A stretch of 64,000 bases of DNA from an uncultured Candidatus Saccharibacteria bacterium (GTDB taxonomy: Bacteria; Patescibacteriota; Minisyncoccia; Phycocordibacterales; UBA9973): positions 18,407 to 82,406 of the forward strand of contig CAYHBR010000001.1 of assembly GCA_964354985.1 (NCBI GenBank), given 5' to 3'. Below are positions 17,796-48,481 of this stretch, piece by piece. Position 1 is the stretch's first letter. Each line of letters begins with the position of its first letter. The notes beneath the pieces are model-generated. The model was given only the letters and a program-made list of their open reading frames with translations, did not search any database and was not told the origin of the DNA. The position numbers were made by a program, and so were the translations under genes.

Positions 17796-20153
17796 TTATT
17801 TCGCTACTGCAAGCGCCTCCTCAAATTGTATTGAGAGTAATTTAGATCCCCCATCTGCCCCGACAGTAACACCGTAAAGTGCATCCGCTCGGGACATAGT
17901 TTCGCGATTGTGAGTGACAACTATGAGCTGAGAAACTTTTGAAAGTTCAACAATAAGATCACCGTACTTACGAGAATTGGCTTCGTCGAGTGCAGCATCC
18001 GTTTCGTCAAGAACAAGAAATGGTGGTGGATTCACTTGTGACATTGCAAAAAGAAGAGCAATAGAAGTGAGGGATCTTTCGCCACCAGAGAGCATTGTCA
18101 GTTCACGAACTTTTTTTTGAGGCAAAGAAACATTGATATCTATTCCCTGCTCGAAATGCTCTTCGGTATCTCCGTCGCCTGCCAAATCACTTTCAAATTC
18201 CATATCTTCTTCTATCCCGCGACGCTTACGAGGTTTTTCAACAATTACAGAAAGAAATGCATTTCCTCCTCCAAACATTAACGCAAAGAATTTTTGAAAT
18301 TCAATATTTATTTTCTCAATACCAGTTTTAAATTCTACATCTAATTTATCTTTAAGATCGCTTATCATTTCTTCGAGTGACTTCATTGCAAGATTTACAT
18401 CTTCAAGTTCGTGCGTCAAAAAACCATCTCGCTCAACAACCTCATCGTGCTCCTTTATAACATCACCTGCACCACCAATACCAGCTTCTTCAAGTTTTAT
18501 TTTTATGCGTTCTATTTTCTTGCGACGATCTTCTTGGAGAGAACGGTCTTCCAATATTTCACCAATATTCTCATTCTGGCCTGCGCTTTCTTTATTTGAA
18601 TTATCATTTTCTCTATTTACACGAAGCATATGAGCCCCGAGCAAAGCTGATGCTTCGCGCATTTCCTCATCGAAATCCAACTTTGTTTTCAGAAGAGCAT
18701 TTTTTCGGAATGAAAGTTTCTCGAGCTCTGACTCAAGTCTATTTTTCTCCATCAAAAACTCATAGCGTTTGCCTTCCTTAGCTCGGCGATCTTTTTCCTC
18801 TTCCTCGTATTTTTTCTTGGCAGTTTCCTCGCGTGATTTCAATTCTAATTCCTTTTCACCTATCTCATCGAGCGCATCTTCGATAGCATTTTTTTCAGAA
18901 ATAAGTGATTTGATTTTTGAATCATCAACAACATCACTTTGGTTACTATTATTTAAATAATTGGCATTACCTTCTTTTGAAACATAAGTCTGGCGAAATT
19001 GCCCGACGGCTATTTGCATCTTTTTAAGAGTTGGGATTATTTCATGAATATTGGTTTGTGATAAAACAAAAGAAATAAGTCTTTCCATCTCACTCAGCAG
19101 TTCAGAAACTCGCTCCCCGGAGATAGCTTCATTTGCCTCACTTACTCCGGCAATTTCTTTTTCATTTTGACGCTCATTCTCAACCTCAAGCAAAGCTTCG
19201 ATGCGTCCGAGTTTTCGCGAAAGATCATCGTAGGTTCGGCGTAAAGTTTCTCGGTCGGTGGCAAGCATTCCAAGCTCTACTGGTTTTGATAAATTGCGAA
19301 CATCTTCCGAAATGAGTGACAAATCTTTTTGCAAATTACCAAGCAATTCTTTTATCCCTTGTTCTTCTTCTCCGAAAGTTTTTTCACCATCTATAATATA
19401 TTTCTCCTCGCGAACAATATACTCACGATAAAGCTCGGCGAGTTCTTGGCGGAGTGTTTCAGCTTTTTGGATTTTCTCGACTTGGCGCTTTAGAAATGCC
19501 AAGCGTGGTGCAAGTTCACGCTTTTGAACCAAAACTTCTTTCATATTTTCTCGAGTCTTTATAAGTTTACGGTCAGCATCTTTTAGACGATATTGATAGA
19601 CCTTGAGTCCGAGCGCGTCCTCGATCATATCTTTTCGGTCGCGTGAATTTGAAGATAAAAGCCGGTCAGCCTCACCTTGAGAAATAATATGGTGACCAGA
19701 TGCACCAATATGCACACTAGTAAGCAGTTCTAGAATATCTTTGAGGCGAACTTCAGAACCATTTAAAAGATATCGGGAAACACCATCAGCGTAAACTTCT
19801 CGAGTAATTGTTATTTCATCAAAATCGAGTCCGCCGTTGTGGTTTCCAGTTTTCCCAGATGACGGAGAATTTTGTGGAAATTTAAAAACTTTTGTTTTGT
19901 TATCGAAAGTAATTGAAACCGAGGCACGGTTGAGTTTGCTGAGAGATTTTGAGCCTTTGAAAATGAGATCGCTACCAGACTTACCACGCATCGACTTCAT
20001 CGACTGCTCGCCGAGCACAAAACGGAGCGCTTCGACGACATTACTTTTACCCGATCCGTTCGGCCCAACAATAGACGTCACTGGACGCTCAAATGAAAGC
20101 ACGCTTTTTTTGGCAAATGATTTGAAGCCTGACAGCTCGAGCGTTTTTAGCAT
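17796..20153 (-). CDS. smc: SMC-family chromosome segregation ATPase (unusually short, 785 aa)
   Basis: N-terminal Walker A (GPNGSGKSN). Long coiled coils. C-terminal ABC signature LSGGERSLTSIALLFA and Walker B/D-loop (FLVLDETDAALD). It follows rnc, as in the rnc-smc operon. Confidence 0.8.
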   Translation of the reverse strand: MLKTLELSGFKSFAKKSVLSFERPVTSIVGPNGSGKSNVVEALRFVLGEQSMKSMRGKSGSDLIFKGSKSLSKLNRASVSITFDNKTKVFKFPQNSPSSGKTGNHNGGLDFDEITITREVYADGVSRYLLNGSEVRLKDILELLTSVHIGASGHHIISQGEADRLLSSNSRDRKDMIEDALGLKVYQYRLKDADRKLIKTRENMKEVLVQKRELAPRLAFLKRQVEKIQKAETLRQELAELYREYIVREEKYIIDGEKTFGEEEQGIKELLGNLQKDLSLISEDVRNLSKPVELGMLATDRETLRRTYDDLSRKLGRIEALLEVENERQNEKEIAGVSEANEAISGERVSELLSEMERLISFVLSQTNIHEIIPTLKKMQIAVGQFRQTYVSKEGNANYLNNSNQSDVVDDSKIKSLISEKNAIEDALDEIGEKELELKSREETAKKKYEEEEKDRRAKEGKRYEFLMEKNRLESELEKLSFRKNALLKTKLDFDEEMREASALLGAHMLRVNRENDNSNKESAGQNENIGEILEDRSLQEDRRKKIERIKIKLEEAGIGGAGDVIKEHDEVVERDGFLTHELEDVNLAMKSLEEMISDLKDKLDVEFKTGIEKINIEFQKFFALMFGGGNAFLSVIVEKPRKRRGIEEDMEFESDLAGDGDTEEHFEQGIDINVSLPQKKVRELTMLSGGERSLTSIALLFAMSQVNPPPFLVLDETDAALDEANSRKYGDLIVELSKVSQLIVVTHNRETMSRADALYGVTVGADGGSKLLSIQFEEALAVAK

Positions 20154-20490
20154 GTTGCTTCTATTTTACGGGAAAAAGTCGAGAAATCAAAGGGAAAAAC
20201 TTGATAATAAATTTATCTATATTTGGTATCTTAACCACTATGTCACAAACAACCATGACGGTGAGCTTATTCTACAAATAGCCAAGGATTACTACGAGTC
20301 GAGATTGAAATCTACAATACTCATATCAGGAGACGGTGATTACCATTGCATCATCGAGTTCCTGAAGGAAAAACGGGTGCCGATCACAATCATTTCACCA
20401 AATAAAAGTTATCTTTCATCTTTATTGAGAAAGACGAGAGTTCCAATAGTCATTTTAGAAGATTTCAAACATAAATTAAAAGTAAAATGA
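20152..20490 (+). CDS. NYN/LabA-like domain protein, short and possibly N-terminally degenerate
   Basis: ILISGDGDYHCIIEFLKEKRVPITIIS matches the LabA/NYN C-terminal motif. The ATG overlaps the smc start (CATG). The gene is wedged between smc and DGR-1. Confidence 0.4.
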   Translation: MLLLFYGKKSRNQREKLDNKFIYIWYLNHYVTNNHDGELILQIAKDYYESRLKSTILISGDGDYHCIIEFLKEKRVPITIISPNKSYLSSLLRKTRVPIVILEDFKHKLKVK

Positions 20491-20575
20491 AAAAGCCCCG
20501 GATATGCCGTGACATATCAAGGGTCTCTTTCATACTGATAGGAATATCATAATATATTACCTAAAGACATGCAAG

Positions 20576-21562
20576 TTATTGTAATGTTAATTCTTGCCTT
20601 ATCTTATATCCATTACCATGTTTCAGAAAACCCAAATATGATTGGACTATGTTTTCTTTTCTACCACTTTTCTGAATACACTTCCACATTCTTCGTTTAG
20701 TTACCGTTCGGAGCACTTTATGCCTATGGAAATGAACCCAGCCGAGAAAATCCACGCCAGAAGCCAAGGTTTTTATAAAAACTTTGTCGGGGTGCAGAGA
20801 TAGCTTCAAATTTTCGGTCAAAAAAACTGATATCTGGGACAAGATGGTTTCAAGACTTTTCTTGTCTTGTGACAAAAAGACAAAATCATCAGCGTATCTG
20901 ATGTAGTGTCTTGCTTTCAGCTTATGCTTCACGAACTGGTCAAACTCATTCATATAAATATTTACTAGGATTTGAGAAGTAAGGTTGCCGAGTGGTAAGC
21001 CTTTACCTTTTTCTATTGAATGAAAGCTCATAATAATTTTGGACAATAACCATAGGATATTTTGGTCAGGGATATAACTTGTCATAATTTTAGTTAGCAC
21101 CTCTTGGTCTATCGAAGCAAAAAACTTTCTGATGTCACATTTCAAAACCCAGACTGTCTTTGTATTATTTTTTGAAACGATATTTGAAAAAGCCTCAAAT
21201 CTACTCATCGCCTTGTGTGTTCCTTTTCCTTTTCTACAAGAGAAAGAATCGGAAATAAATGTCTTGTCGAAAAATGGGTATAACTTACGATAAAGTGCAC
21301 GGTGAAGCAACCTATCTCGCACGCAAGCTTTGTGTATACTCCTGGGTTTTGGATCTGAAATATTAAAAGCTTTGTACGGTGAATGTAAATATGTTTTATT
21401 GTAAAGATCATTGTGAAGCGCAATAATATTACCCATAAGGTTTCTCTGAAATAATTGAACATCTTTTCTTTGTCTCTTCCCTTTTACAAATTCACCCCAT
21501 GCTTCAAGCAAATTTTCAAGCGATATGATATCTTGGTATGTATGATCGAATTTAATTCTCAT
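20576..21562 (-). CDS. DGR reverse transcriptase (RT-1)
   Basis: 328 aa. Group-II-like fingers/palm with YADD (RYADDFVF). Motif 4 reads GLPLGNLTSQILVNIY, the DGR hallmark, not the group II intron QGxxxSP. There is no En domain. An adjacent TR/VR pair is present. Confidence 0.85.
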   Translation of the reverse strand: MRIKFDHTYQDIISLENLLEAWGEFVKGKRQRKDVQLFQRNLMGNIIALHNDLYNKTYLHSPYKAFNISDPKPRSIHKACVRDRLLHRALYRKLYPFFDKTFISDSFSCRKGKGTHKAMSRFEAFSNIVSKNNTKTVWVLKCDIRKFFASIDQEVLTKIMTSYIPDQNILWLLSKIIMSFHSIEKGKGLPLGNLTSQILVNIYMNEFDQFVKHKLKARHYIRYADDFVFLSQDKKSLETILSQISVFLTENLKLSLHPDKVFIKTLASGVDFLGWVHFHRHKVLRTVTKRRMWKCIQKSGRKENIVQSYLGFLKHGNGYKIRQELTLQ

Positions 21563-21575
21563 TCCTTAAATATTA

Positions 21576-21585
21576 CCCCCCCCCC
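21576..21585. repeat. C10 homopolymer (G10 on the RT coding strand) about 14 nt upstream of the RT-1 ATG
   Basis: cccccccccc seen directly. The same arrangement recurs upstream of RT-2. Confidence 0.9.
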
Positions 21586-21616
21586 GAGCACTTTTACCAG
21601 TTCTAGGCAGTTTTAA

Positions 21617-21940
21617 AAATCTATATATTTTTGGTACGCTATTTATCAAATATTACCAAAAGCACACAGGCACACTCTGGGACAAAGGATTGACACGCTA
21701 TTTATTGAAAGTATTGAAGCAATTTCAATTGCCAGTTTTTTATCACGACAAGAAAAGCAACCATATGTTCGTGTTGCTATTAGAAAAATCGACACTTTAA
21801 AAGTGTTACTCATGATACTCTGGGAAACCAAATCTATAGACGATAAAAAATACATCGCCCTCTCGGTAAAGCTCGAAGAAATTGGAAAGATGCTCGGCGG
21901 CTGGAATGGACAATTAGCAAAACAAAACTCTCCCAAATAG
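21617..21940 (+). CDS. Avd-like accessory protein (four-helix-bundle / 23S rRNA IVS protein family), plus-strand, with no canonical ATG at the head of the frame
   Basis: A 107-codon open frame ending ..ALSVKLEEIGKMLGGWNGQLAKQNSPK. It is collinear with the plus-strand ORF at 47638..47961 (KLEEVGKMFGGW), and the differences between them are mostly synonymous. The ...ELxxQL...KLEEVGKML.G motif is typical of Avd/IVS proteins. Confidence 0.55.
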   Translation, partial: KSIYFWYAIYQILPKAHRHTLGQRIDTLFIESIEAISIASFLSRQEKQPYVRVAIRKIDTLKVLLMILWETKSIDDKKYIALSVKLEEIGKMLGGWNGQLAKQNSPK

Positions 21941-21960
21941 AGGGAGAGAAATGAAGAGAG

Positions 21961-22087
21961 TTGCGAAACGGCAAACGCGAACCCGTTCTCACGATTCCAC
22001 CTGTTATCAGGCTTGTCATAGTACGCATTGAGCCAACGACCATCGTCGTTACGGTTCGCGTTGAGCAAGTTAGGATCGCCATCGGAA
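21961..22087 (-). repeat. DGR-1 template repeat (TR-1); the ORF-track ORF 21646..22068 is a non-coding artefact of it
   Basis: 127 bp aligning to 22424..22550. About 15 mismatches, all at plus-strand T in this copy (A in the minus sense) against C or A in the other copy. Confidence 0.85.
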
Positions 22088-22342
22088 CGCGCGAGATATC
22101 ATCCGTGCCACCACCCTTTGAGTTCTCTCAGGATTGTATTTTATTCGGCATCGCAATGCCTCAATGTCTCGCGCCAAGTATCTTCGTTTTTGCAGGTTAC
22201 ATGCACTACTCTATCCGAAACCATGATCGCGGATACACTCAATGCAAGGATACTGGGTTCGGTAGCGCCCAACCGTGATCGTGCGCATATTCACCTACTG
22301 CCATCGGCAATTATATCGTATTTTATATTTTATGAAAAAAAT

Positions 22343-22370
22343 AGTCCCCGATTTAAAAAATCGAGGACTA
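22343..22370. other. Hairpin downstream of the target-1 stop (AGTCCcCGATTT-aa-AAATCGaGGACT). A second small palindrome, AGAACTgaAGTTCT, is at 22385-22398, immediately 3' of the VR
   Basis: Inverted repeats seen directly. DGR VRs are commonly followed by a stem-loop. Confidence 0.45.
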
Positions 22371-22405
22371 AGGACTAAATGCAAAGAACTGAAGTTCTGA
22401 GCATC

Positions 22406-23029
22406 TTAATTTTGAGTACTAACTTGCGAAACGGCAAACGCGAACCCGCCCTCACGATCCCACCTGCTATCAGGCTCGCCATAGTACGCAAAGAGCCAAC
22501 GACCACCGCCGAAACGGTCCGCGCTGAGCAAGTTAGGATCGCCACCGGAATCCTTGATCGGTTCGTGCATAGCAACGATCCAGATAAGCCCCATTGCTTC
22601 GATCTCCTCGTCTGTGAACTTTTCACGGATGAGACATGCGATCTCAGCGTTTGGTGTTTCCAATTTGCGATTGGCAGCTTCGCTACGGATCTTCTTAGTG
22701 ATACGGTTGTTGTCTTCGAACAGCATCCCTTTGAGTACCGCAACTTCGGTTGTTATTCCAGAAGTAGGCTTGAAATCTTTTGAAAGTAACACACTCTTAG
22801 CATAATCGCTGAGGCGGTATCCTTTTTTCTCAAGACGCACAATCCATTCTGCCCCGGTAGCGCCGTCAGAAATGACATTGAAGTAAATTACTCCATCTTT
22901 TTCTGTCCAGCTCCTTGCCGGTTCTGCAATAGTGATTTCACCACGAAGGAATCTATTAACTCCTTCTTCTCCACCAAGTTTGTTCCATACGGCTTCTACT
23001 CGGCCAAATGTAATATCAGGATATTTCAT
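22406..23029 (-). CDS. DGR-1 target (variable) protein, 207 aa, with a C-terminal CLec-like variable region (VR-1 at 22424..22550)
   Basis: The C-terminus ..RFGGGRWLFAYYGEPDSRWDREGGFAFAVSQ.. is encoded by VR-1. Residues 1-207 are homologous to the C-terminal ~200 aa of the 613-aa target at 48482..50323. Confidence 0.8.
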   Translation of the reverse strand: MKYPDITFGRVEAVWNKLGGEEGVNRFLRGEITIAEPARSWTEKDGVIYFNVISDGATGAEWIVRLEKKGYRLSDYAKSVLLSKDFKPTSGITTEVAVLKGMLFEDNNRITKKIRSEAANRKLETPNAEIACLIREKFTDEEIEAMGLIWIVAMHEPIKDSGGDPNLLSADRFGGGRWLFAYYGEPDSRWDREGGFAFAVSQVSTQN

Positions 23030-23097
23030 TCTTATAAGTTTTTAGGCTATTAGCCTTTTGTTGCTTACTGTCCGCAAGCTGGAGCGTGACTTTTGTT

Positions 23098-23154
23098 AGC
23101 CATAGCCAGAAAGCACCTCGTCGAAAGGAACCTTTTGGCTATGGCTATTTGCAA
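23098..23154. other. 10-bp perfect inverted repeat (GCCATAGCCA .. TGGCTATGGC) with a 27-nt loop, in the rnc / target-1 intergenic region
   Basis: Seen directly. Possibly regulatory or a small RNA. Confidence 0.3.
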
Positions 23155-23218
23155 GTTAGTTGGAAAGGAACTGTTTTATATTATACTCTTATTAACACAA
23201 AAGTCAATAGCTATGTAG

Positions 23219-23914
23219 TTATTCCCTCCACCCCTTTTTCTCAAGCGCACCTTCCGCCGCCGAAGTTTCGGCTTCTTGTTTAGATTTGCCTTTGCCACTC
23301 GCAATGTGCTCGCTACCAAAGAAAATACCGACAGTAAATTGTTTGTCGTGGTCTGGCCCAGTTTCCTTCATCACTTTGTAGGCCGGAGTGAGCGAGTAGT
23401 GTTCTTGCGCCATTTCTTGGATATAGCTTTTGGCGTCGCGCCAGAGTTTCTTTTTTACGATTTCATCGATACGACCTGCGAGAGTTTTTAAAATAAATTC
23501 GGTTGCAATATCGTAACCTTGGTCGAGGTAGATAGCACCGACAACAGCTTCATAGGTATTGGCGAGTATGTACTGACGGGCTTTGCCATTGTCTTTCTGC
23601 TCGCCTTTCGACAAAAGCAAATATTCATTCATACCGAGCTCGCTAGCAACCTCAGAAATGATAACAGCATTGACGAGTGCCGAACGGTAGCTCGTGAGTT
23701 CACCTTCGGTAACATTTGGATACTTATCAAAAAGGAAACGGGTGATAGCGAGTTCAAGAACCGCATCACCAAGGAATTCGAAGCGTTCGTTGTGAAAAAG
23801 TCCGGTGTTCGGATTTTCGTTGATATATGAGCGATGGATAAATGCTTGAGTTAAAAGACCTCGGTCTTTAAAATTGACGCCGATGGCTTTTTCAAATGAT
23901 GGAAAATCTGGCAT
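23219..23914 (-). CDS. rnc: Ribonuclease III
   Basis: ERFEFLGDAVLEL signature and a C-terminal dsRBD (..GKGKSKQEAETSAAEGAL..). Confidence 0.9.
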   Translation of the reverse strand: MPDFPSFEKAIGVNFKDRGLLTQAFIHRSYINENPNTGLFHNERFEFLGDAVLELAITRFLFDKYPNVTEGELTSYRSALVNAVIISEVASELGMNEYLLLSKGEQKDNGKARQYILANTYEAVVGAIYLDQGYDIATEFILKTLAGRIDEIVKKKLWRDAKSYIQEMAQEHYSLTPAYKVMKETGPDHDKQFTVGIFFGSEHIASGKGKSKQEAETSAAEGALEKKGWRE

Positions 23915-23998: not shown

Positions 23999-24898
23999 TT
24001 AGTTCTGGCTAGTTATAAATTCGACTGATTTTTGAATCATAGCGACAGTATCGTCGTATGTTGTCAGGCTTGGTACTTCGGTCACTGGAAACCATTTGGC
24101 ATCGGTGAGACCGTCTTTTTGCTCCAGGAGTAGCGTCTGAAAGGGCGCTTCACCAAGGAAGTATGTCACCTGCTTTCGTATCTTACCCTTTTCTGGATGA
24201 GATGCAATATACTCGTTTTCGCCGAGAACAGTTTTGACAACAATTGGCAAACCGATCTCTTCACCAATATCGCGGACAATACCGTCTTCTGGTGTTTCGC
24301 TATCTTCAAGACTGCCTTTGGAAAGAGTCCAGTAGCCGAAAATGTCATGCACGAGTGCGAGGTATATCATGCCTTCGTGAAGTGCATAGACAACGGCACC
24401 AACTTTTTTCTCAATTGGCAGAGACTCAATGTCGACAAGCTCGTCTTTTTTCTTTTTGGAAACTTCATCTTTGCCTGGCTCGCCGATTTCTTTGTAAACA
24501 GCACCGAGTACTCCATTGATAAACTTACTGGAATTTTCACCACCAAAACTTTTGGCAAGTTCAATAGCTTCGTTGATTGCGACTTTTGGTGGGACTTGGG
24601 TTCTGTCACCAAAAAGAAGCTCAGTGAGCCCCATGCGCAGAATATTTCGATCAACAATATTTATTTTCTCAAGTGGCCAGTCTGGCGCAGCTTTTGAAAT
24701 AATATCATCAACAACAGAACGATGACGCAGTACGTCAGTGGTGAGAGCAAGAATGAAATCGCCATCTTCAAGACCTGGGCCGTATTCTTTGATATCCCTT
24801 TCTACTACATCAGCAACAGCCTCGTCTGGCACCTTACGAAAATCCCACTCAAAGAGTGATTGGAGAACAATGGATCTTGAAAGATGTCGATGTGCCAT
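23999..24898 (-). CDS. nusB: NusB-like antitermination domain fused to a C-terminal NUDIX hydrolase domain
   Basis: The N-terminal ~140 aa are NusB-like (..SRSIVLQSLFEWDF.., ..AINEAIELAKSFGGE..). The C-terminal half carries the Nudix box GSLEDSETPEDGIVRDIGEEIGL. Confidence 0.7.
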   Translation of the reverse strand: MAHRHLSRSIVLQSLFEWDFRKVPDEAVADVVERDIKEYGPGLEDGDFILALTTDVLRHRSVVDDIISKAAPDWPLEKINIVDRNILRMGLTELLFGDRTQVPPKVAINEAIELAKSFGGENSSKFINGVLGAVYKEIGEPGKDEVSKKKKDELVDIESLPIEKKVGAVVYALHEGMIYLALVHDIFGYWTLSKGSLEDSETPEDGIVRDIGEEIGLPIVVKTVLGENEYIASHPEKGKIRKQVTYFLGEAPFQTLLLEQKDGLTDAKWFPVTEVPSLTTYDDTVAMIQKSVEFITSQN

Positions 24899-28017: not shown

Positions 28018-31000
28018 CTATTGTACAGGAACGGGAGAATCAACTACTGGCAACGGCGGGGCAACTTCTGTAACCGTCGGCACAACTTCAGGAGGAACCT
28101 CTGTTTGTACTGCTGTTATATCTGGGACCAAACCAATGTCTGGTGTCGGTATAGTCTCAGGAACAGGAGCAACCTCTGAAGTAGTGGAATCTGCTGTTGG
28201 TATATTAACATTATTAAGAAGTGTTTGCATCTGGTCACCGGTCACGCAAACTTCAGAACCATCTGATTTTTTAACACATATTTCTTCTGTGTGTACTTTT
28301 TTAGCAAATACTTCATCAAAGTATCCGCGAATAGCAATGACACGGGCGGACACAAAGTCGGTAAGAATTTTTGTTCCAGTTGCGACTTTTGCTTCAATAA
28401 TTGAAATAGGATTTTGAGCTATCTCGGATTGAACATCAGAAATGAGAGTTACCAATCCTTCTGTTGTAGAAATATCTCCCATCAAAAGCGATTGATCTTT
28501 CATTGAATATTTACCCGGCGAATATGTATTTTTTATAAAGGCGATTACTTGACCAACACCTTCTCCGCCAAAAGAAGTAAGTGCTTGTCCGATAACCATT
28601 CCATCTTCTGTTGCTTTCATTGCGACTCCCGGAGTCGTGGAGCTAGCAAGGAAATCCCCCGGTTCAATCACACCATTTTCAACAGAAACATTCATTGGAA
28701 CGCGACCAGAGAGTGCGACTGCAACTTGTGACGAGCCTATTCTTTTTCCATCATCAAGTATAAGTCCCGGCTGAGTAGAAACAACGCCTAATACTTCTTT
28801 ATCGTAAGTATTCGTTGTTCTTGTGACGCCTGACTCAAGTGAGTGATCTATTCTGACCAATTCTCCTGGTAGCAATCCCACATCACTCGTATTGTATATT
28901 TCAGCCAAATCAGCACCGCCTGTATTTGTAGAATTCGTTACCATTAGAAAACTTCCGGCATTGACAACGGGCGATGCGGCTACCGTTGCTACGTTTTGTG
29001 CAAATTGGAATTGGAGGTTTCCAGCGGTTCCAGCTGTCGTTACATATCCATGAACAAATACGCGCTGGGTTAATACTGCCGTTGTTGCAATAGCGCAAGA
29101 AGTTCCACTGGCAATAATATTACAATATGCGGAAGAGGTAGCAGAAATAGCATTAACTCCCTCCAGATTTATTGTCGCGCCGGCTGGAGTAGTGAATGTA
29201 TATTTCAAATCAGCAGTTGCATTTGATACGTTAGTATTAATACTTGCCTGAACATAATAAGTTGTATTTGCAGCCATAGCAAAAACTAATTCCGGATCAT
29301 TTAGAAAGACTGTCGAATTTGAAGTAGCCGTTGTCGGAGAAGCTTTTACTATATATTTACTGCCATCAGTATCGCAATTCTTCCAGGCTCCATTTTCATA
29401 ACAACGGAATTTATTTGAAGTAGTATTGTAATAAGTTCCACCATTTATACCAGCCGGATCAGCGCTCCCTGCGTCAAGCACCAATAGATCCGGTGTCGCT
29501 TTTCCAGTAATAGAACCGATTTGGATTTTACTTGATGTCGCTGTTCCGCCAGCCTCAAGAGTAATCGCGTTTGCGCCAGTTGTCGTAATTGTTCCTGCTC
29601 CTGCAAAAGTTAACCCTGTAGCTGATGTGCCAATAGTATCTATCGAGAGTACGCCGGTTAGTGCACCGCCTGTTGTGAGATTGAGTCCTGTTGAGGCAAT
29701 TGCCAAAGTATCGGAAGTAGAGCCCAACACAATAGTGTCAGTAGATGCCCCGTTTGTACCAATATTGATTGCGTTGTTTCCGCTACCAGTACCGATATTA
29801 ATTGTTTTTGAATCGTTGCCGTTTCCAATATTTACAGTTCCTGTTGTTCCAGAATCTAATGTCACTGAGCCTGTTGTGTCAGATTTTATGGAAACCACAC
29901 CGCCAGTACTAGCAAGCAATGTAATTCCGCCAGAACCAGAATATATATTGACAGTAGTTCCATCTGTAATATTACCAATTGTCACAGTTTTTCCAGAAGC
30001 ACCTGTTCCGATATTTACCGCACCAGTAGTTCCTGAGTCAACAGTTATATCGGAAGTTGTCGTTGAAGAAATTGTTCCCGCACTAGCAAAAGTTAGACCG
30101 GTTGCTGAAGCTCCGATTGTGTCGATAGAGGAGACACCAGTTATGGCGCCCGCACTAGAAACATTTAAACCAGAGGAAGTAACGACAAATGTCCCAGTTG
30201 CATTTCCAATAGCTGTATTTGATGATCCGGTTGTATTTATACTTGCCGTTCCACCAGAGACAGTAATGCCGGCGGACCCTATCAACAAGCCTGCGGAAGT
30301 AATTGTTCCTGACCCAGTTGAAGAAATATTTCCGGAAGTTGAAATAGCGCCAATTGAAGAGACGGAAGCAACTCCAGTTAGTGCGCCCGCGCTCGAAACA
30401 TTTAACCCGGAAGATAATAATGAGAACGTATCATCAGCTCCGTTACCAATGACTATTGTATTTACAGCGACACCATCACCAATGTGAATTGTTTTTCCAC
30501 TTGTTCCTGTACCAAGATTAACCGCACCCGTAGAACCAGAGTCAAGATTGAGAGCACCTGTTGTTCCTGAGGTTATTGAAAGAGCTGAGCCAGAAGCTGA
30601 AGTAATAGCGAGAGTGCTTCCGCCAGCGAGAGTTGTTGCACCTGTGCCTGTCAGTGTTGCGCTTCCTGCAGAAACTCCGAAACGAGTACTACCGCCGGTA
30701 ATAAAGTTTAAACCTTGAGCGTCTGTGGTTCCGAGAGAAGCAGAAGTTCCGAAAGCATTGCCCGACTGAACAAAAGCAAAAGAGTTAATTGTTGTTGCAG
30801 TGGTTGGAGTACATCCTAGACGCCATCTAGTAGCACCGGAATCGTACTGTGTACAGAAAGTTGTACCCGCTGGAATAATAACATCGGAACTAGTTCCAGT
30901 GATAATTCTATTTCCGGCAGTGGAGCTTGCAGACTCATTGCTTATCGTCAGATTGAAAGATGACGCATTCATAAACCGAATATACAAACCATCTACACCG

Positions 31001-34000
31001 CCTGCTATTCCAGTAAATGTTGCAGTATCAGTGCCTGTATAACGGATTAAACCACCCGAAGCTAACACAATATTATTTTGCACGCCTGTTGTTGCATAGT
31101 CAGTTCCTTTTGGTGTAATAAAATTGCCAGCAAAAGTTGAATTTCCGTTTACTGTTAAATTTCCGCCAGCAGTAATTAGTCCGCTTCCTGTAGTTATTGG
31201 TCTATTTGTTGTTGTATTAATACCGAGAGTGCCTGCACCAGTCATATTTAGGATCGAATCGTCCGCGACGAAAGTAAGGGCATTCGCATTATTAGTCATA
31301 ATCCCAGATCCAGTCGTAAAAGTATGACCTCCGGTAATAGCAACATCACCACCCAAATTTATTCCACCAGAACCACTATTTATATTTATAGCAGTTGATG
31401 TAGTAACATTTCCAATAGTAATATTTTTTGCATTTGCATTTGTTCCAATATTTATTGCACCAGTAGTTCCTGAATCTAAAGTTAGGATTCCAGTTGTTCC
31501 CGTAGAAACACTAAGCGAAGAACCATTGCCCGATGAAAGACTGGTAGTCCCCGCTCCAGATAAAGTAAGTGTTCCACCGGAAGACATACTCAAATTTCCT
31601 GCACCACTATCGGTGATACTTAAATTTTTCCCTGCCAAGTCTATCGTGCTATTTGCATCAACAGTCATCGAGTCAGATAGTTCACTAAAATCAAGAGCGT
31701 CGGTTAGACTTGAAGCAATTGATGACCATTTTATCCCTGTAGCTTGGGTAGAATCAGTGGTCAAAACAAAACCATTTGTAACACCAACAGGCAGTCTTGT
31801 TGAACTATTTACTCCGTTTCCAATAATTAAGTCACCTTTTGTCGTCACCGGAGAAAGTGCACTGAATGCAGAAGCAACTGTTGTTTGCCCGGTCCCACCC
31901 TGAGCAACACCCACTGTTCCGGTTGAAGTTAGATTTTTTGAAGCATCAGTAAATACAACTTTTGAAGCAGTAAGACTTGGGAGACTTACTGTACTACCGA
32001 GACTTATTGTCCCCGCACCTGAAATATTAAAATCTCCAGAAGCTAGAGCAAAAGAAATCGGGGTACTACTTGCGGTAGTGATTGTTGCATTGTTATTGTA
32101 AGCGCCTTGCATTGTGCTTATACCACAATCAGCCCAAGCACCTTGCACATAACAACGGAAAATACCGAGAGAATTGTTGTAATACATACTTCCGTTTGTA
32201 CCACCAACTGGGTCGCCGGTATCTGATTTTACATCAAGAGAAAATAAATCTGGAGTGACAGAACCGGCTCCGCCTGTTCCAATCTGAACTTTTCCTGTTC
32301 CTGTCCCAGCAGATTGCAATGACAATGTTCCGGTGCTTGTTCCCCACGTCGAAGCAGCGCCACCAGTCAAAGTCAAAGCTCCGCCTGAAGTAAAAGAAGA
32401 AGCAGATGTTGGAGTAAGATTTACTGCACCAGTTCCTGTTGCGGTGAAGTTTCCTGAAGAAAGTAAGATTGAAAGATCCGATGAAGACGTTGTAGTAATA
32501 GTTGAATTACTTACATATGCTTGTTGTAATGTAACAGCACTGGCAACAGAAGCACCGCAATCCTGCCATCCACCACCTTCATAACATCTAAAAGAATCAC
32601 GGGCGGCATTAAAATACATATCACCGTTATCACCAGTTGGGTCACCAGTTCCACTTGCGATACTTTTTTGATCTAAAGAAAATAAATCTGGAGTAGCAGA
32701 TGGTGCATCGTCGGCTCCAACATGCACGATACCTGTAGCTGAGCCATTTACACTTATAACCAAATCACCCGTACTCGTACCCCATGTCGAAGCAGCGCCA
32801 CCAGTCAAAGTCAAAGCTCCGCCTGAAGTAAAAGAAGAAGCAGATGTTGGGGTAAGGCTTACCGCACCAGCTCCTGAGGCAGTGAAGTTGCCTGAAGTTA
32901 ATACCAAACCTACATCAACCGCACCGGCAGTTGTAATAGTTCCTCCGCTATTATATGCACTTTGTAGTGATGTCGAGCCACCTGTTGTATCGCAGTCAGA
33001 CCAAGAACCATTTGTGTAACATCTAAATTTATTGGAATTTAGATTGTAATACATACTTCCGTTTGTGCCTTCGGCTGGATCTCCTGAATCTGATTTAACA
33101 TCGAGAGACAATAAATCCGGAGTAGTTGACCCTGCTCCGCCAACACCTATTTTAATAACACCAGTTGCGCCTCCGCCGGCTGACTGGAAAGTGATATTCC
33201 CTGCTGTTGTACTTAAACTCGAAGCAGCTCCTCCAACAAAAGTTAGTCCACTACTAGAAGTTATGCCAATAGCTCCAGCTGAACTATTTCCAATATTAAC
33301 AGCACCAGAAGATGTGCCTGTATTTATATTTGTTGCAAAATTACTACTAGCATTTATATTCGCTACTGCCCCAACCGCAGAAAGTCCCGCTGAAGCAGTA
33401 AAAAGTCCAGCCGAAGTCATTGTTCCAGTAGCTGTTGTAAAAATATTTCCTGAAGTTGTTAAATTGTCTCCCGCAGTTAAGGGCGATATTGTCGTGCCAA
33501 CTCTTTGAAATTTACTAGTGTTTGGACTCCAAGATAATCCTCCTGTGCCGTCAGTAATCAAGGCTTCCCCTAGTGCTCCGTCGGCGCTTGGCAATGTGTA
33601 TGTTGTTGAACCGGCAGTTGCAGGAGGAGCAAAACCAACATAGCCTGAAGTAGCGCCGGACAATCTAAGTTCGCCTTTTACATCAAGTGCTGAGCCTGGA
33701 ACTGCTTTTCCGATTCCCACTAAAGGATTTCCAAGACCGTCATCCATTATTCGCATTCTTTCTGAAGATGAGTCTGTTCCACTTGTAAAAAAAACAAGAG
33801 AAGTCCCTGTATCATTTGTTCCAATTACTAAATCACCGCCAAGTCCTCCAACTCCTCTCGAAACCAAGTAGGAATCATTTTTACCAGCTGGCGACCAACT
33901 AGCATCCGTAAAACCAGAAGAATTTATTCCCAAATCAACATACCCGCTTGTTTCACTTCCATTGTCTGCAGTTGCAACAATGTCTGAAGAAGCATTTGTG

Positions 34001-37000
34001 CCAGCATTACTGTTCTTAATGTTTAATTGTAAATAATTATTAACATCACCATATCCGCCGATTATATTGTATGAGGTACTTCCTGAAGGCATCACAACTT
34101 TCAAACGCTCTGGACTAATTGGATCAAAGATATCAGAACCGATCGCAAGATTTCCATTATTATCAATTATAAATGGAGATGTATCACTCGATGAATCATC
34201 TACTCGAAAACTATTTCCATTTCCCAAATTTGAAACAAATAACGGCATTGAAGCAGACGAAGCTAATGTTGTTGCTTTAACTATTGATGCCGTGCTATTT
34301 GCAGTCGATGCGATATTTTCACCAAAAGTAATTCCAGACTGACCGCTAGTTGCAAGTGACCAATTCCACACTTGTCCCAAATCCCCATTGTTGATTGTGT
34401 TTGTTGCAAGTGCTTCTGTTAGAGACGAAAGATGTGTTGCTCCATTAAATCCCCCGGAACAAGTAAGGACTCCAACTGTTCCATCTACACTACATCCAGT
34501 TGAGCCATAACCACCCATAAGATTGAGAGTACCAGATGCGCCCGGAGCACCAATATTTACGGTTGTTGCTGATCCTCCAATATTTAAAGCTGTGGCATTT
34601 GTATTAAAAAGATTTCCTGTTGCGCTTGTAGTAGAAATCGTTCCGCCATTTATTGCGGAGTTTGAAGCAGTGGTAAATAAACCGCTTGAATTGACTGACC
34701 AATTTGCAGAATTTAAAGAAAGAGAATCAAGACCACTTCCCAATGAAATAGTATCCGCAAGAGTATCATCTGTCCCTACATTAATAACGTTACCAGCATT
34801 TCCTGTTCCAATAGATATTGTTTTTCCACTTGTTCCTGTACCAAGATTAACCGCACCCGTAGAACCAGAGTCAAGATTGAGAGCACCTGTTGTTCCTGAG
34901 GTTATTGAAAGAGCTGAGCCAGAAGCTGAAGTAATAGCGAGAGTGCTTCCGCCAGCGAGAGTTGTTGCACCTGTGCCTGTCAGTGTTGCGCTTCCTGCAG
35001 AAACTCCGAAACGAGTACTACCGCCGGTAATAAAGTTTAAACCTTGAGCGTCTGTGGTTCCGAGAGAAGCGGTTGTTCCGAATTGATTGCCACCTTGTAT
35101 ATAAGCAAACCCCGAAAGTGTTCCGATTGTCGCAGGTAATACCACAATGCGCCAGCGACTTATAGCTGAATCATATTCAAGACCGATAGACACTCCTGCC
35201 GGAACAGTTTGATTTAAACTAGATGCCGTTACAATGCGATTGATATCCGTAGAACTTAAACTCTCGTTAACAAGTGTTACTGCAAAACTTGAAGCATTCA
35301 TTATACGGATTTGTTTTCCATCTGCTCCCCCAGTTATTCCCGTGAAAGTAGCTACGCCCAGTCCTGTATAACGGAAAAGATAGCCGGATCCAAAATCAAC
35401 ATCATTATGCGAACCTGTTGTTGCATAATCAGTTCCTTTTGGTGTGATAAAATCTCCTGAAACAGTCAAGTTGCCACTTAGAGTTTTTGCACCCGATATT
35501 GTCTGCGTTCCGCTTGTTACAAGTCCTCTGTTTGTTGCAGAGGCATCTGGAATATTCAATGTAAGAGTTCCTCCGAGCGAAGTCGGTGAACCTGAAATAT
35601 TTGCGTCTGTTCCGGATGTTCCTAGTGTTAAACCAATAGTTGAATTTACTAATTTATTATTTGCAATCGTCCCAGTAACAATATCGCCATTGACGATAGA
35701 GCCGGCGAGATTGAGTTTACTATATGCAACTGATGCACTTGCTGAAAGATCTCCGTCTACAATCGTTCCGTCTAATATTTTGCCTGTAGTAATTGCCCCA
35801 GTGCCAATAGTAATAGCACCAGCATTACTGACAGTTGCGTCGCCCGATGCTGTAACAAAAGTTGGAACACCAGAAACATTGGCGACCAGAAACTGACCCG
35901 AAGAACCTGCTGTAGTGGCAGAAAGAGCGCTCGTTCCATTGCCATAAAGTAAACCTTTTGTTGTAAATGTCCCTGATCCAGTTCCACCTCGCGCGACAGA
36001 AAGATTTCCGGAAGTAATAGCTCCGACATCGAGGGATGTTGTGCCGGCAGCGGTCAATCTACCTTGTGCGTCCACTGTAAAAGTTGGGACCAAAGTACTA
36101 GAACCATAGTCACCTAAAGTGACAGCAGTATTATTTAAAGCGAAAGTAATATTCCCCGAACCAATAAGCCTGTTCGTAAGTGTTCCACTCAATCCAACTC
36201 CAGTGCCTGCGAGCAGGTCACCGTTACCTGTATTTAACAAGCAAGTTGGACAATCAATATTTCCAGTAGTGGCTGAATAACTTATTGGTCCAACACCAGC
36301 TATTGAATTCCTCGCACGGGCATTTGTAAAATATTGATTTGTCCCTTCAGAAATATTACTTGTTGTTAAGCTTACCGCGCCAGTTAGGCCATTTACACTA
36401 GCAACATTTGTTCCCTGTTGAATACGATCCCAAGTTGCACCGTTGTTTAAAATCCAATCCCCAACCGCCCAAGTTGAATTGCCATCTATAGATGTGCTTC
36501 CTGCGACACTTACAATAAATAAATCTCCTGCAATATCAGGTAGTCCATTTTCTAGCCCACCACTAGCAAGAGGCGGTGTATTGGTGTCTGCATCCCAAAC
36601 TCCATCATATTTTAATGAACCAGTAATTGAGCTAGGTAATAATGAAGTATTTATCTTACCACCAACATCAAGAAGAGATATCCAAGAAAGATCGCCCGCA
36701 AGAACTGCGTGGTTGTCAGCAGTACCTGTCCCTAAGTCCGCAGGAACGATTGAACGAAAAGTGGGATTAGTGGAAACGCCATCAGTCGGTCCAAGTAAAA
36801 AATTGTTAGCAGCAACAATTTCTGAAAATACACCGCCACCTTTACATTCAAAGATAGTGCCGTTCCAGCTAAGCCTTTCGTTACTAGCACAAGTTGGGAC
36901 ATTTACTTTTAAGTCTGTCCCTGAAAAAATTAAACCATTACCGATGCTTATTTCTGAAGTATTATCTGATGACCCAGTTGGATTTCCAAGCAATTTACTA

Positions 37001-47577: not shown

Positions 47578-47587
47578 CCCCCCCCCC
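47578..47587. repeat. C10 homopolymer (G10 in the RT sense) about 10 nt upstream of the RT-2 start
   Basis: cccccccccc seen directly, in the same position as at RT-1. Confidence 0.9.
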
Positions 47588-48123: not shown

Positions 48124-48481
48124 TTTGTGCGGCATGCCATCTGTGTCACTGCCGACTTAAGCGCACCATGTGCCAGAAGCCGTGCTGTATTGGTATGCGT
48201 GATCTAACCCAGTAGGCGATCCTGTTGGATCGAAATCACCCAGCGCGTCGCACCAAGTTTTTTCTTTTTAAAGACCTCTATGTAAATCCTCCGCGAAAAG
48301 CCGTAACCGTTCGCGCTCTCAATCCACACGAAGTAAATTGGTCTTGAAAAACCGTAGCCGTTCAATGAAACCAATCTAGAAATAGTATACCAAAAAAACT
48401 GAACTCGCTTCGCGAGTAAATGCCAAAGGGTCAAAGAACCCAAGAGTCAAAGAATCAGAAAAATACAAAGAAACAATTGGT

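What the first reader, a model, noticed from the sequence alone, without database searches (positions are those of the whole stretch)
20576..23029. A second, paralogous DGR (DGR-1) inserted between rnc and smc
TR-1 (21961-22087) and VR-1 (22424-22550, the last ~42 codons of the 207-aa gene) are 127 bp with about 15 mismatches. Every one is at a TR adenine (plus-strand T in the TR against C/A in the VR), and the 3' ~24 nt are identical, which is IMH-like. RT-1 is about 65% identical to RT-2 and has the same GNLTSQ motif. rnc and smc are directly adjacent in the B. subtilis rncS-smc-ftsY operon, so the whole 2.5-kb cassette, together with a degenerate NYN-like gene, looks like an insertion into a conserved operon.
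Basis: partly seen in the sequence, partly recalled or inferred. Interest (0 to 1): 0.85.

Follow-up and report, generated by a model that had tools for sequence, protein, structure and literature searches.

The report
Patescibacterial DGR cassette inserted after rnc
This is a genuine diversity-generating retroelement, a reverse-transcriptase cassette that rewrites the tip of one small binding protein, of the type already known to be common in Candidate Phyla Radiation bacteria; it was inserted between two housekeeping genes, and its helper gene is now broken.

Summary
TR-1 (21961-22087) and VR-1 (22424-22550) are 127-nt repeats with 15 mismatches, all at template adenines on the coding (minus) strand (p about 1e-11). 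The last 25 nt are identical.

The cassette is a complete DGR of the known Patescibacteria/CPR "B3" layout: target, TR, inverted avd, RT.
- a bAvd-like gene on the opposite strand;
- a ~220-nt covariation-supported structured RNA leader 5' of the TR;
- a conserved terminator-like hairpin just after the TR;
- a C10/G10 homopolymer at the avd/RT junction.

None of 80 related Paceibacteria loci carries a DGR at the rnc-smc junction. The closest relative has 65 bp where the window has about 2.65 kb, so this is an insertion. The NYN gene was there before it.

DGR-1 is not a recent duplicate of DGR-2. RT identity is 59%, against 59-70% to cassettes in other genomes.

avd-1 carries a lineage-specific 1-nt deletion and a premature stop. 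The VR is identical in all 7 contigs found. The element is probably silent or decaying.

Verdict: new member of a known kind. The most novel lead is that simple-sequence tracts may gate avd expression.

The parts
20576..23218 (-). Whole inserted DGR-1 cassette, about 2.65 kb, lying between the rnc stop codon and the pre-existing NYN/smc intergenic sequence
   Evidence: Homology to the closest relative L001 ends at window 23219 and resumes at about 20540-20590, within the last ~15 nt of the RT ORF. L001 has 65 bp there.
23180..23207 (-). Promoter-like site (TTGACT-16-TATAAT, 11/12) upstream of the target gene, inside the insertion
   Evidence: Consensus scan. Function is inferred, not shown.
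22406..23029 (-). Target gene: 207 aa, no Pfam or NCBIfam match, no hydrophobic segment, C-type-lectin-like fold
22424..22550 (-). VR-1 (variable repeat), codons about 160-202 of the target
   Evidence: The nine most variable columns of a 56-member family alignment are exactly the codons that carry two A in TR-1.
22424..22448 (-). IMH-like 3' end of the VR: 25 nt identical to TR 21961-21985, beginning GC-rich (GGGTTCGCG...), never mutated
   Evidence: Codon CAA (Q202), which has two A, is nearly invariant across the family (53 of the 56 aligned members have Q).
22342..22370 (-). Intrinsic-terminator-like hairpin (13 pairs plus a T run) after the target stop codon
22310..22338 (-). Promoter-like site (TTTTCA-17-TATAAT) directly 5' of the leader RNA. 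The -10 element is conserved in homologous cassettes.
22088..22309 (-). Structured non-coding leader RNA (~220 nt, 7 helices) abutting the 5' end of the TR
   Evidence: Alignment of 25 cassettes: 50 pairs, 96.6% paired, 36 pairs with compensatory changes, 0/500 shuffles reach this, slid controls give 10-17. The covariance model independently finds the DGR-2 leader at 48125-48384 (90 bits, E 1e-24). It gives no hit in 1.29 Mb of other Paceibacteria DNA. No Rfam match.
21961..22087 (-). TR-1 (template repeat): 30 A, 29 of them in codon positions 1-2, nine AAY codons
21918..21960 (-). Conserved 12-nt pyrimidine linker (CTCTCTTCATTT), hairpin 21928-21948 and U tract (TTTTGTTTT). This is a terminator-like 3' end of the TR RNA and overlaps the avd C-terminal codons KQNSP on the other strand.
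   Evidence: The hairpin plus U tract is found in 28 of 29 cassettes by the automated fold, with differing, mutually complementary stem sequences. The 29th was mis-anchored and shows the hairpin by eye.
21542..21940 (+). avd-1: bAvd-like accessory gene on the opposite strand, head-to-head with the RT. It is disrupted by a premature TAA at 21614-21616 and a 1-nt deletion in the T run 21628-21632.
   Evidence: PF22296 bAvd 46 bits (above the gathering threshold of 40). NCBIfam DivGenRetAVD 61 bits (below the cutoff of 80). Frames. The deletion is unique among 14 aligned cassettes and is present in all three independent assemblies.
21576..21585 (.). C10 (G10 on the RT strand) homopolymer between the avd ATG and the conserved avd helix 1, 14 nt upstream of the RT start
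   Evidence: It is C11 in two otherwise identical assemblies. 34 of 42 G/C runs of 8 or more in 1.95 Mb of held CPR DNA lie at this junction.
20576..21562 (-). RT-1: 328 aa, intact, with the DGR-type motifs LPLGNLTSQ and YADD
   Evidence: RVT_1 2e-26. Best solved relative 8ub7_A at 5e-39. 59-70% identical to RTs of homologous cassettes.

Best explanation
DGR-1 is a complete diversity-generating retroelement of the Patescibacteria (CPR) type with 'B3' architecture.

Layout on the minus strand: promoter, 207-aa target gene with a C-terminal VR, terminator, promoter, ~220-nt structured leader RNA, TR, linker with terminator-like hairpin, an inverted avd, a homopolymer tract, then the RT.

Origin. 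The 2.65-kb unit was inserted directly after the rnc stop codon, into an rnc-(NYN)-smc interval that varies between relatives.

Mechanism (inferred from the Bordetella paradigm). A roughly 400-nt RNA carrying leader, TR and hairpin is bound by RT and Avd. It is reverse-transcribed with misincorporation opposite adenines. The cDNA then replaces the VR up to the invariant 25-nt IMH-like end. This recodes up to 19 codons, about 2.6e16 variants, on the ligand-binding face of a C-type-lectin-like domain.

Current state. The 15 adenine-only differences show that retrohoming has happened. In the sequenced population avd-1 is inactivated by a 1-nt deletion plus a premature stop, and the VR is identical in every contig recovered. 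The element is most likely silent and at an early stage of the decay seen in relatives, unless Avd-2 complements it.
For: - TR/VR adenine specificity: p 1.3e-11. A positions fall in codon positions 1-2, and all changes are non-synonymous.
- Family-wide hypervariability sits exactly on TR AAY codons. About 27 homologous loci show clearly adenine-biased TR/VR pairs.
- RT-1 is closest to the Bordetella bRT structure and has the [LIV]GxxxSQ and YxDD motifs.
- Avd homologue present.
- The layout TR-(avd)-RT is architecture B3, which covers 90% of CPR DGRs (PMC5758913).
- Leader RNA covariation, with an independent hit at DGR-2.
- Conserved hairpin plus U tract after the TR.
- CLec-like fold.
- Empty site in L001, and 80 relatives without a DGR at this junction.
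- avd-1 deletion unique among 14 cassettes and present in 3 assemblies.
- Identical VR on 7 contigs, and a one-member 90% cluster.
- A decay series in relatives: pseudogenised avd in L090, VR/TR collapse in L084, and leader relics behind orphan targets.
Against: - No reads were available, so minority VR variants and true tract lengths are unknown. Assembly consensus hides low-level diversification.
- The real avd start codon is not known. Only 11 of about 28 distinct cassettes have the upstream ATG in frame, which is close to chance. 'Out of frame' may therefore not mean 'off'.
- Avd-2 (38% identical) or transcriptional slippage could supply function.
- The promoters and terminators are consensus matches only.
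- The insertion is inferred from genomes only about 76% identical in DNA, so exact breakpoints and any target-site duplication cannot be read.
Confidence: 0.85

Rival explanations
1. DGR-1 is fully active and autonomous. A functional Avd-1 is made despite the apparent frameshift, through RNA-polymerase or ribosome slippage on the C10, A5 or T5 runs, or from a non-canonical start.
For: The RT, TR, VR, leader and hairpin are all intact. Many homologous cassettes also look out of frame from the upstream ATG, so frame may not predict activity. The tract length is polymorphic in this population, C10 versus C11.
Against: The 1-nt deletion in the YLLWY codons is unique to this locus among 14 cassettes. 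It cannot be corrected by any C-tract length. There is no ATG, GTG or TTG after the TAA until residue ~60 of the Avd body. The VR is identical in 7 contigs.
Confidence: 0.12
2. DGR-1 works with Avd-2 supplied in trans from DGR-2, 26 kb away. The broken avd-1 is therefore tolerated.
For: Both cassettes share the same architecture, homologous RTs (59%) and a homologous leader RNA (90-bit CM hit). The avd-2 body is intact.
Against: Avd-1 and Avd-2 are only 38% identical. avd-2 is itself out of frame with its upstream ATG at C10. No VR variation is seen. Cross-complementation between DGRs has not been tested here.
Confidence: 0.15
3. The cassette is ancestral at this site and was deleted in the relatives, rather than inserted here.
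For: The rnc-smc interval varies between relatives, with gaps from 11 bp to 3.5 kb.
Against: None of 80 relatives, spanning rnc identities of 58-95%, has any RT, avd, target or leader relic at this junction. Homologous cassettes elsewhere sit in unrelated contexts. One gain is far more parsimonious than dozens of clean losses.
Confidence: 0.04
4. The repeat pair is an ordinary duplication, and the RT belongs to another class: group II intron, retron or a defence RT.
For: NCBIfam's best named hits are group II RT and Drt models, all far below their cutoffs.
Against: Adenine-only mismatches at p 1e-11. The best solved relative is the DGR RT by 20 orders of magnitude. An Avd gene is present. No intron or retron RNA was found by Rfam.
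Confidence: 0.01

Closest known systems
CPR/Patescibacteria DGRs: architecture B3 of Wu et al. 2018 (PMC5758913) and DGR clade 2 of Roux et al. 2021 (PMC8144416). First surveyed by Paul et al. 2017, which I could not read.
   Same: The order TR-(inverted avd)-RT. A chromosomal cassette in Paceibacteria. A small target without a transmembrane segment or known domain. A C-terminal VR. Low apparent activity.
   Different: Nothing essential. This is another member. I did not find the following in the literature I could search or in Rfam:
- the 5' structured leader;
- the terminator hairpin that overlaps the avd 3' end;
- the simple-sequence tract in the avd 5' end.
Bordetella phage BPP-1 DGR (mtd-avd-TR-Sp-brt)
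   Same: Adenine-specific TR-to-VR information flow. AAY-rich TR. GC-rich invariant 3' end (IMH-like). A bRT-like RT (E 5e-39). An Avd-family accessory protein. A CLec-fold target.
   Different: [quoted passage not shown] There is no 140-nt Sp downstream of the TR. Instead there is a ~45-nt linker, hairpin and U tract, and the large structured RNA lies upstream of the TR. IMH and IMH* are identical. There is no GC-rich cruciform after the VR. The element is chromosomal, not phage-borne (best phage RT 39% identical).
RT-10 RNA motif / Sp spacer RNA of the BPP-1 DGR (Weinberg et al. 2017, PMC5737381; Handa et al., bioRxiv 10.1101/2023.10.23.563531)
   Same: A conserved structured RNA adjacent to the TR, presumably the RT-Avd binding and priming scaffold.
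   Different: It lies on the other side of the TR (5', not 3'). There is no Rfam match at E of 1 or below. A priming site is not identifiable.
Simple-sequence contingency loci: Haemophilus influenzae (CAAT)n in lic1A and (CCAA)n in hgp genes, and poly-G/C tracts in Neisseria and Bordetella fim genes (from my own knowledge)
   Same: Homopolymer (C8-C13) or tetranucleotide repeats, (CAAT)7 and (CCAA)11-12 on the avd strand, lie just downstream of an ATG in the 5' end of avd. Tract length is polymorphic between otherwise identical contigs.
   Different: No expression data. In-frame states are not enriched (11 of about 28). Sequencing error at homopolymers is not excluded. Transcriptional slippage is an alternative.

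Membership tests
Diversity-generating retroelement (DGR) | Reverse transcriptase of the DGR clade (motif 4 [LIV]GxxxSQ, catalytic YxDD, closest to bRT) | tested here: met
   LPLGNLTSQ and YADD are present. The best PDB relative, 8ub7_A, has a sequence I recognise as bRT, at E 5e-39 against about 1e-18 for group II RTs. No formal phylogeny was made.
Diversity-generating retroelement (DGR) | TR/VR near-repeat whose differences fall overwhelmingly at TR adenines | tested here: met
   15 of 15 mismatches are at TR adenines, p 1.3e-11.
Diversity-generating retroelement (DGR) | VR inside a protein-coding target, usually at the 3' end. TR adenines in codon positions 1-2 (AAY). | tested here: met
   The VR covers codons 160-202 of 207. 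29 of 30 adenines are in positions 1-2. There are nine AAY codons. Only one codon (AAG) can mutate to a stop.
Diversity-generating retroelement (DGR) | IMH at the 3' end of the VR with IMH* in the TR, marking the boundary of mutagenesis | tested here: inconclusive
   A 25-nt identical, initially GC-rich 3' segment carries two unmutated adenines. IMH and IMH* do not differ, so any discrimination must lie downstream. Function cannot be tested here.
Diversity-generating retroelement (DGR) | Accessory variability determinant (Avd), intact | tested here: not met
   The homologue is present: PF22296 at 46 bits, above the threshold of 40, and NF033474 at 61 bits, below the cutoff of 80. The ORF is interrupted by TAA at 21614 and a unique 1-nt deletion. 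The family feature is present but the gene is disrupted.
Diversity-generating retroelement (DGR) | VR displayed on a C-type-lectin (or Ig) fold | tested here: inconclusive
Diversity-generating retroelement (DGR) | Ongoing diversification (VR heterogeneity within or between populations) | tested here: not met
   The protein is identical on all 7 contigs read; the three loci returned come from three samples. Its 90%-identity cluster has one member. Read-level heterogeneity cannot be tested with these tools.
CPR-type DGR (architecture B3 / clade 2) | Order TR-(avd on reverse strand)-RT | tested here: met
   The same order is seen in DGR-2 and in 37 metagenome loci. Definition from PMC5758913.
CPR-type DGR (architecture B3 / clade 2) | Host in Patescibacteria; RT within clade 2 | tested here: inconclusive
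   Flanking genes are 91-95% identical to proteins of MAGs whose record titles read Paceibacterota, Parcubacteria or, for L002, Saccharibacteria; all are Patescibacteria. Placement of the RT in the Roux et al. tree was not done.
Phase-variable contingency locus (simple-sequence repeat switch) | SSR with a unit not divisible by 3, in a 5' coding region or promoter | tested here: met
   C10 at 21576-21585 and C10 at 47578-47587. Homologues carry G8-G13, (GGTT)n or (GATT)n.
Phase-variable contingency locus (simple-sequence repeat switch) | Tract length polymorphic among otherwise identical sequences | tested here: inconclusive
   Length differs in 4 of 5 groups of identical cassettes: 10/11, 9/10, 10/8 and 11/8, with 0-2 flank mismatches in 600 nt. 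Homopolymer sequencing or assembly error is not excluded, and two of the contigs end at the tract.
Phase-variable contingency locus (simple-sequence repeat switch) | Tract length switches expression on and off | not testable with these tools
   This needs reporter fusions or proteomics. In-frame states are 11 of about 28, near chance.

The most novel reading that the evidence does not exclude
In this clade of Patescibacteria DGRs the hypermutation machine may itself be gated by a hypermutable switch. A poly-C tract (8-13 nt), or (CAAT)n or (CCAA)n repeats, sits between the avd start codon and the first Avd helix, head-to-head with the RT. The start codon is an ATG that is the antisense of the conserved RT His-7 codon.

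Tract length, or RNA-polymerase slippage on the tract, would set whether Avd is made, and so whether retrohoming can occur.

In addition, the RNA scaffold for RT-Avd lies 5' of the TR as a ~220-nt structured leader. This RNA family is absent from Rfam and takes the place of the 3' Sp element of the Bordetella paradigm.
Probability: 0.35. Interest if true: 0.7.

Novelty: new member of a known kind. Interest (0 to 1): 0.45.

Why it matters
As a DGR the locus adds little. CPR bacteria are already known to be rich in B3-type DGRs that diversify small, unannotated C-lectin-like proteins.

Its value is as a clean, dated example:
- It has an empty-site comparison showing that a whole 2.65-kb cassette moves as a unit, bringing its own promoters and terminators.
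- It lands in a permissive gap of a conserved operon with no recombinase gene inside the cassette.
- Its relatives show the stages of decay: avd frameshift, VR/TR collapse and leader relics.

The family-level features found on the way would matter more to DGR specialists if confirmed. The covariation-supported leader RNA and the post-TR hairpin define the likely DGR RNA of CPR elements, which is needed to reconstitute one. The simple-sequence tracts suggest a testable regulatory layer on targeted hypermutation.

Tried and rejected
- Rfam at E of 1 or below over 20300-23400 gave only two chance-level hits. None of the RT-1 to RT-19 motifs matched.
- Foldseek against the PDB gave nothing significant.
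- Avd-1 against PDB sequences gave no Avd hit by phmmer.
- A long-range duplex between the conserved A-rich leader block and the post-TR linker, which would be analogous to a cPRT-stop or primer duplex, is weak: mean z of -1 over 25 cassettes. I am not claiming it.
- Enrichment of in-frame (ON) tract states is 11 of about 28, no better than chance.
- I tested whether an orphan target 12 kb from a cassette on the same contig (L108 against the L094 TR) is a second target. Of 29 mismatches only 17 are at A, so it looks like a diverged paralogue rather than a clean target.
- No third VR-like site for TR-1 or TR-2 exists in the window.
- The two other G9 runs next to rnc, in L027 and L045, belong to unrelated inserts: a pair of short ORFs in L027 that I read as HicAB-like from their sequence alone, and a 776-aa surface protein in L045.
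- Programmed -1 ribosomal frameshifting at TTTAAAAAT was considered and rejected, because the sequence does not fit the X XXY YYZ rule.
- Paul et al. 2017 could not be read. No paper holding the PDB code 8UB7 was found.
- Searches for papers linking DGRs to homopolymeric phase variation, or to structured RNAs upstream of the TR, found nothing relevant.
Full report
OBSERVATION. Window 21961-22087 and 22424-22550 align without gaps over 127 nt with 15 mismatches, and similarity ends abruptly on both sides. Every mismatch is a plus-strand T in the upstream copy. On the minus strand, which is the coding strand of ORF 22406-23029, each is therefore an A in the TR replaced by G (11 times) or T (4 times) in the VR. 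With 30 A among 127 positions the hypergeometric probability is 1.3e-11. Of the 30 adenines, 29 lie in codon positions 1 or 2. Twelve codons differ and all differences are non-synonymous. Only one TR codon (AAG) can mutate to a stop. The theoretical repertoire is about 2.6e16 proteins. The last 25 nt are identical and contain two unmutated adenines. RT-1 (20576-21562, minus, 328 aa) is 59% identical to RT-2, not 65%, and both carry LPLGNLTSQ and YADD.

ANATOMY.

- avd. [quoted passage not shown] It scores 46 bits against PF22296, above the gathering threshold, and 61 bits against NCBIfam DivGenRetAVD, below its cutoff. DGR-2 has the same layout. So do 37 of 80 metagenome loci that encode a homologue of the target. 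This TR-(avd)-RT order is architecture B3 of Wu et al. 2018, which they report for 90% of CPR DGRs (PMC5758913).
- Target transcription signals. A near-consensus promoter-like site (23207-23180) precedes the target. A strong terminator-like hairpin (22370-22342) follows it. A second promoter-like site (22338-22310) follows that.
- Leader RNA. From there to the TR runs a ~220-nt non-coding segment that is conserved in 25 cassettes and clearly structured. It has 50 base pairs in 7 helices, 96.6% of cells paired, and 36 pairs with compensatory double changes. No shuffle out of 500 reaches this, and slid controls give 10-17. A covariance model built from these sequences finds only two places in the 64-kb window. 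One is the training copy. The other is an independent 90-bit hit (E about 1e-24) immediately 5' of TR-2. The model hits every cassette locus just upstream of its TR. It hits nothing in 1.29 Mb of other Paceibacteria DNA, apart from relics behind two orphan targets. Rfam has no match.
- Post-TR element. Thirteen nucleotides after the TR comes a conserved pyrimidine linker, then a hairpin (21948-21928) and a TTTTGTTTT tract. The automated fold finds this hairpin in 28 of 29 cassettes, with differing but mutually complementary stems. The 29th was mis-anchored and shows the hairpin by eye. The element also encodes the conserved Avd C-terminus KQNSP on the other strand.

WHAT THE PROTEINS ARE.

- RT. 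Its best solved relative is chain 8ub7_A (E 5e-39, against 1e-17 to 1e-18 for group II intron and retron-type RTs). From the printed alignment I recognise that sequence as the Bordetella phage bRT, with IGSLTSQ and YMDD. That recognition rests on my memory, and no paper holding the PDB code was found. The nearest phage-encoded RT is only 39% identical.
- Target family. There are 2011 homologues, nearly all about 205-213 aa, from CPR metagenomes. In the family alignment the nine most variable columns are exactly the nine codons that carry two adenines in this window's TR. About 27 homologous loci have their own clearly adenine-biased TR/VR pairs. This matches Roux et al. 2021. Their clade 2 is restricted to Patescibacteria, its targets lack transmembrane or known domains, and its activity is below average (PMC8144416).

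INSERTION. Eighty Paceibacteria/Parcubacteria loci retrieved with Rnc keep the order nusB-rnc-smc. None has an RT, avd, target or leader hit anywhere in 10-kb flanks. In the closest relative, L001 (Rnc 95% identical), homology stops at the rnc stop codon (window 23219). It resumes at about 20540-20590, inside the last ~15 nt of the RT ORF. L001 has 65 bp there and the window has about 2.65 kb. The inserted unit is exactly promoter-target-leader-TR-avd-RT, and no recombinase gene lies within it.

L001 has an intact 167-aa NYN gene between rnc and smc, whereas the window keeps only its C-terminal ~100 codons. The NYN gene therefore predates the DGR and is decaying independently. The rnc-smc gap is a variable spot in this group. 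Across 65 loci, the gap is at most 120 bp in 23, 121-700 bp in 26, 701-1500 bp in 12 and longer in 4. Its contents include a pair of short ORFs that I read as HicAB-like from sequence alone, and a 776-aa surface protein.

DGR-1 is not a recent copy of DGR-2. Its RT, Avd and target are closer to cassettes in other genomes (59-70%, up to 80%, up to 78%) than to DGR-2 (59%, 38%, 29%).

IS IT STILL WORKING? The 15 adenine-specific changes prove past retrohoming. Two lines of evidence argue against present activity.

First, avd-1 is broken. In homologous cassettes the avd ORF often begins at an ATG that is the antisense of RT codon 7. That codon is His and is CAT in 13 of 13 cases, against a 65% background (p 0.004). 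The ORF then crosses a homopolymer and continues into a conserved helix-1 motif, LLPVLxKxKxxYLLWY. In the window the ATG frame runs into TAA at 21614. The helix-1 motif is in another frame. A 1-nt deletion in the T run 21628-21632, unique among 14 aligned cassettes, separates it from the rest of Avd. No length of the C tract can restore a full-length protein. The same sequence is present in three independent assemblies.

Second, the exact target protein is found on 7 contigs, and its 90%-identity cluster has a single member. No VR variant of this locus exists in the database.

Relatives show later stages of the same decay:
- avd with in-frame stops in L090;
- collapse of the VR onto the TR in L084;
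- 'orphan' targets, 13 of 50 informative loci, several of which keep a leader-RNA relic or, in L149, a 51-nt TR relic with 8 of 8 mismatches at A;
- two orphan targets that are sequence-identical across 15 contigs each.

Caveats: no reads could be examined, the true avd start is unproven, and Avd-2 might act in trans.

THE SIMPLE-SEQUENCE TRACT. At the avd/RT junction the window has C10 (21576-21585). DGR-2 has C10 at the same relative position (47578-47587). These are the only G/C runs of 10 or more in the 64 kb.

- Most homologous cassettes with a readable junction carry G8-G13 there. In three loci with a readable junction the tract is replaced by (GGTT)11-12 or (GATT)7, which reads (CCAA)n or (CAAT)n on the avd strand.
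- In 1.95 Mb of held CPR sequence, 34 of 42 G/C runs of 8 or more lie at this junction. So do all four tetranucleotide repeats of 5 or more units.
- Tract length differs in 4 of 5 groups of otherwise identical contigs. The window has 10 against 11 in two other assemblies, and other groups show 9/10, 10/8 and 11/8.

This is the signature of contingency loci. However, in-frame states are not enriched (11 of about 28), homopolymer error is not excluded, and RNA-polymerase slippage is an alternative reading. I found no mention of this in the searchable literature. I treat it as a lead, not a finding.

MECHANISM. The shown steps are the parts list, adenine-specific information transfer from TR to VR, the conserved RNA structure, the insertion, and the avd lesion.

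The inferred steps, from the Bordetella system, are as follows (Handa et al., bioRxiv 10.1101/2023.10.23.563531). RT and Avd bind a ~400-nt RNA made of leader, TR and hairpin. cDNA synthesis is primed near the 3' end of the TR, with misincorporation opposite A. The cDNA replaces the VR up to the invariant 25-nt end. In Bordetella the large structured element (Sp) lies 3' of the TR. Here it lies 5', and the 3' side is only a linker and hairpin, so the priming geometry cannot be deduced. A test for a leader-linker duplex was weak.

VERDICT. This is a genuine DGR and a new member of the known CPR B3 kind. It was inserted into the rnc-smc interval and is now probably silent. Interest is moderate. 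The family-level RNA leader and the simple-sequence tract are the parts worth following up.

Noticed in passing
window 21576-21585 and 47578-47587; L084-L163 avd/RT junctions: A homopolymer sits at the head-to-head avd/RT junction of both DGRs and of most homologous cassettes (C10 here; G8-G13 on the RT strand elsewhere). It is replaced by (GGTT)n, (GATT)n or (CTGG)n in L100, L158, L126 and L085. 34 of 42 G/C runs of 8 or more in 1.95 Mb lie here. Length differs between otherwise identical contigs. This is a candidate phase-variation or slippage switch for avd.
   Followed up: partly
window 22088-22309 (-) and 48125-48384 (-): A ~220-nt structured RNA lies immediately 5' of each TR, with strong covariation (36 of 50 pairs compensatory). 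It is absent from Rfam and specific to these cassettes.
   Followed up: yes
window 21918-21960 (-); the same position in 28 of 29 cassettes: A conserved linker, hairpin and U tract directly follow the TR. They overlap the Avd C-terminal codons (KQNSP) on the other strand, so one stretch of DNA is constrained both as an RNA hairpin and as protein.
   Followed up: partly
window 21542-21640 (+): avd-1 has a premature TAA (21614-21616) and a 1-nt deletion in the T run 21628-21632 that no other aligned cassette has. It is a probable pseudogene.
   Followed up: yes
L084:129-1070; L101:566-1502; L102:7001-7937: In these cassettes the target gene is followed directly by the hairpin and avd, with no leader and no separate TR. 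In L084 the target ends in an Asn-rich TR-like sequence. This looks like a deletion by VR/TR recombination.
   Followed up: partly
L164/L165:3331-3553; L160:7723-7853; L118:7719-7982; L149:7769-8018: 'Orphan' target genes with no RT or avd within several kb still carry a relic of the leader RNA behind them. In L149 there is also a 51-nt TR relic. These are decayed cassettes. Two orphan proteins (P0068, P0041) are identical in 15 contigs each.
   Followed up: partly
L091:5100-9500; L115:5000-12400: Two complete cassettes of this family lie in tandem on one contig.
   Followed up: no
window 20155-20487 (+); L001:10813-11316 (-): Only the C-terminal ~100 codons of an NYN-domain gene remain in the window (matching profile positions 72-136 of 145). 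The gene is intact (167 aa) at the same position in the closest relative.
   Followed up: yes
window 17796-20153 (-): The SMC homologue is only 785 aa and has no hinge-domain Pfam hit. Relatives have similar lengths (741-767 aa), so a short SMC appears typical of this lineage.
   Followed up: no
window 23999-24898 (-): A NusB-NUDIX fusion protein (299 aa) lies upstream of rnc and is conserved in the relatives.
   Followed up: no
window 29800-35500: There are many long internal direct repeats (families D1, D2, D4, D7, D8, D10, D11), including two 300-nt copies 94% identical. They may belong to the very large ORF (product about 3191 aa) called on the matching contig, of which I saw only the end (window about 28018-29029). 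I did not check this.
   Followed up: no
L027:10852 and L045:10722: Two relatives have G9 runs just downstream of rnc inside unrelated inserts. L027 carries a pair of short ORFs that I read as HicAB-like from their sequence alone (no family search was run). L045 carries a 776-aa Thr/Ser-rich surface protein. The rnc-smc gap is a variable spot.
   Followed up: partly
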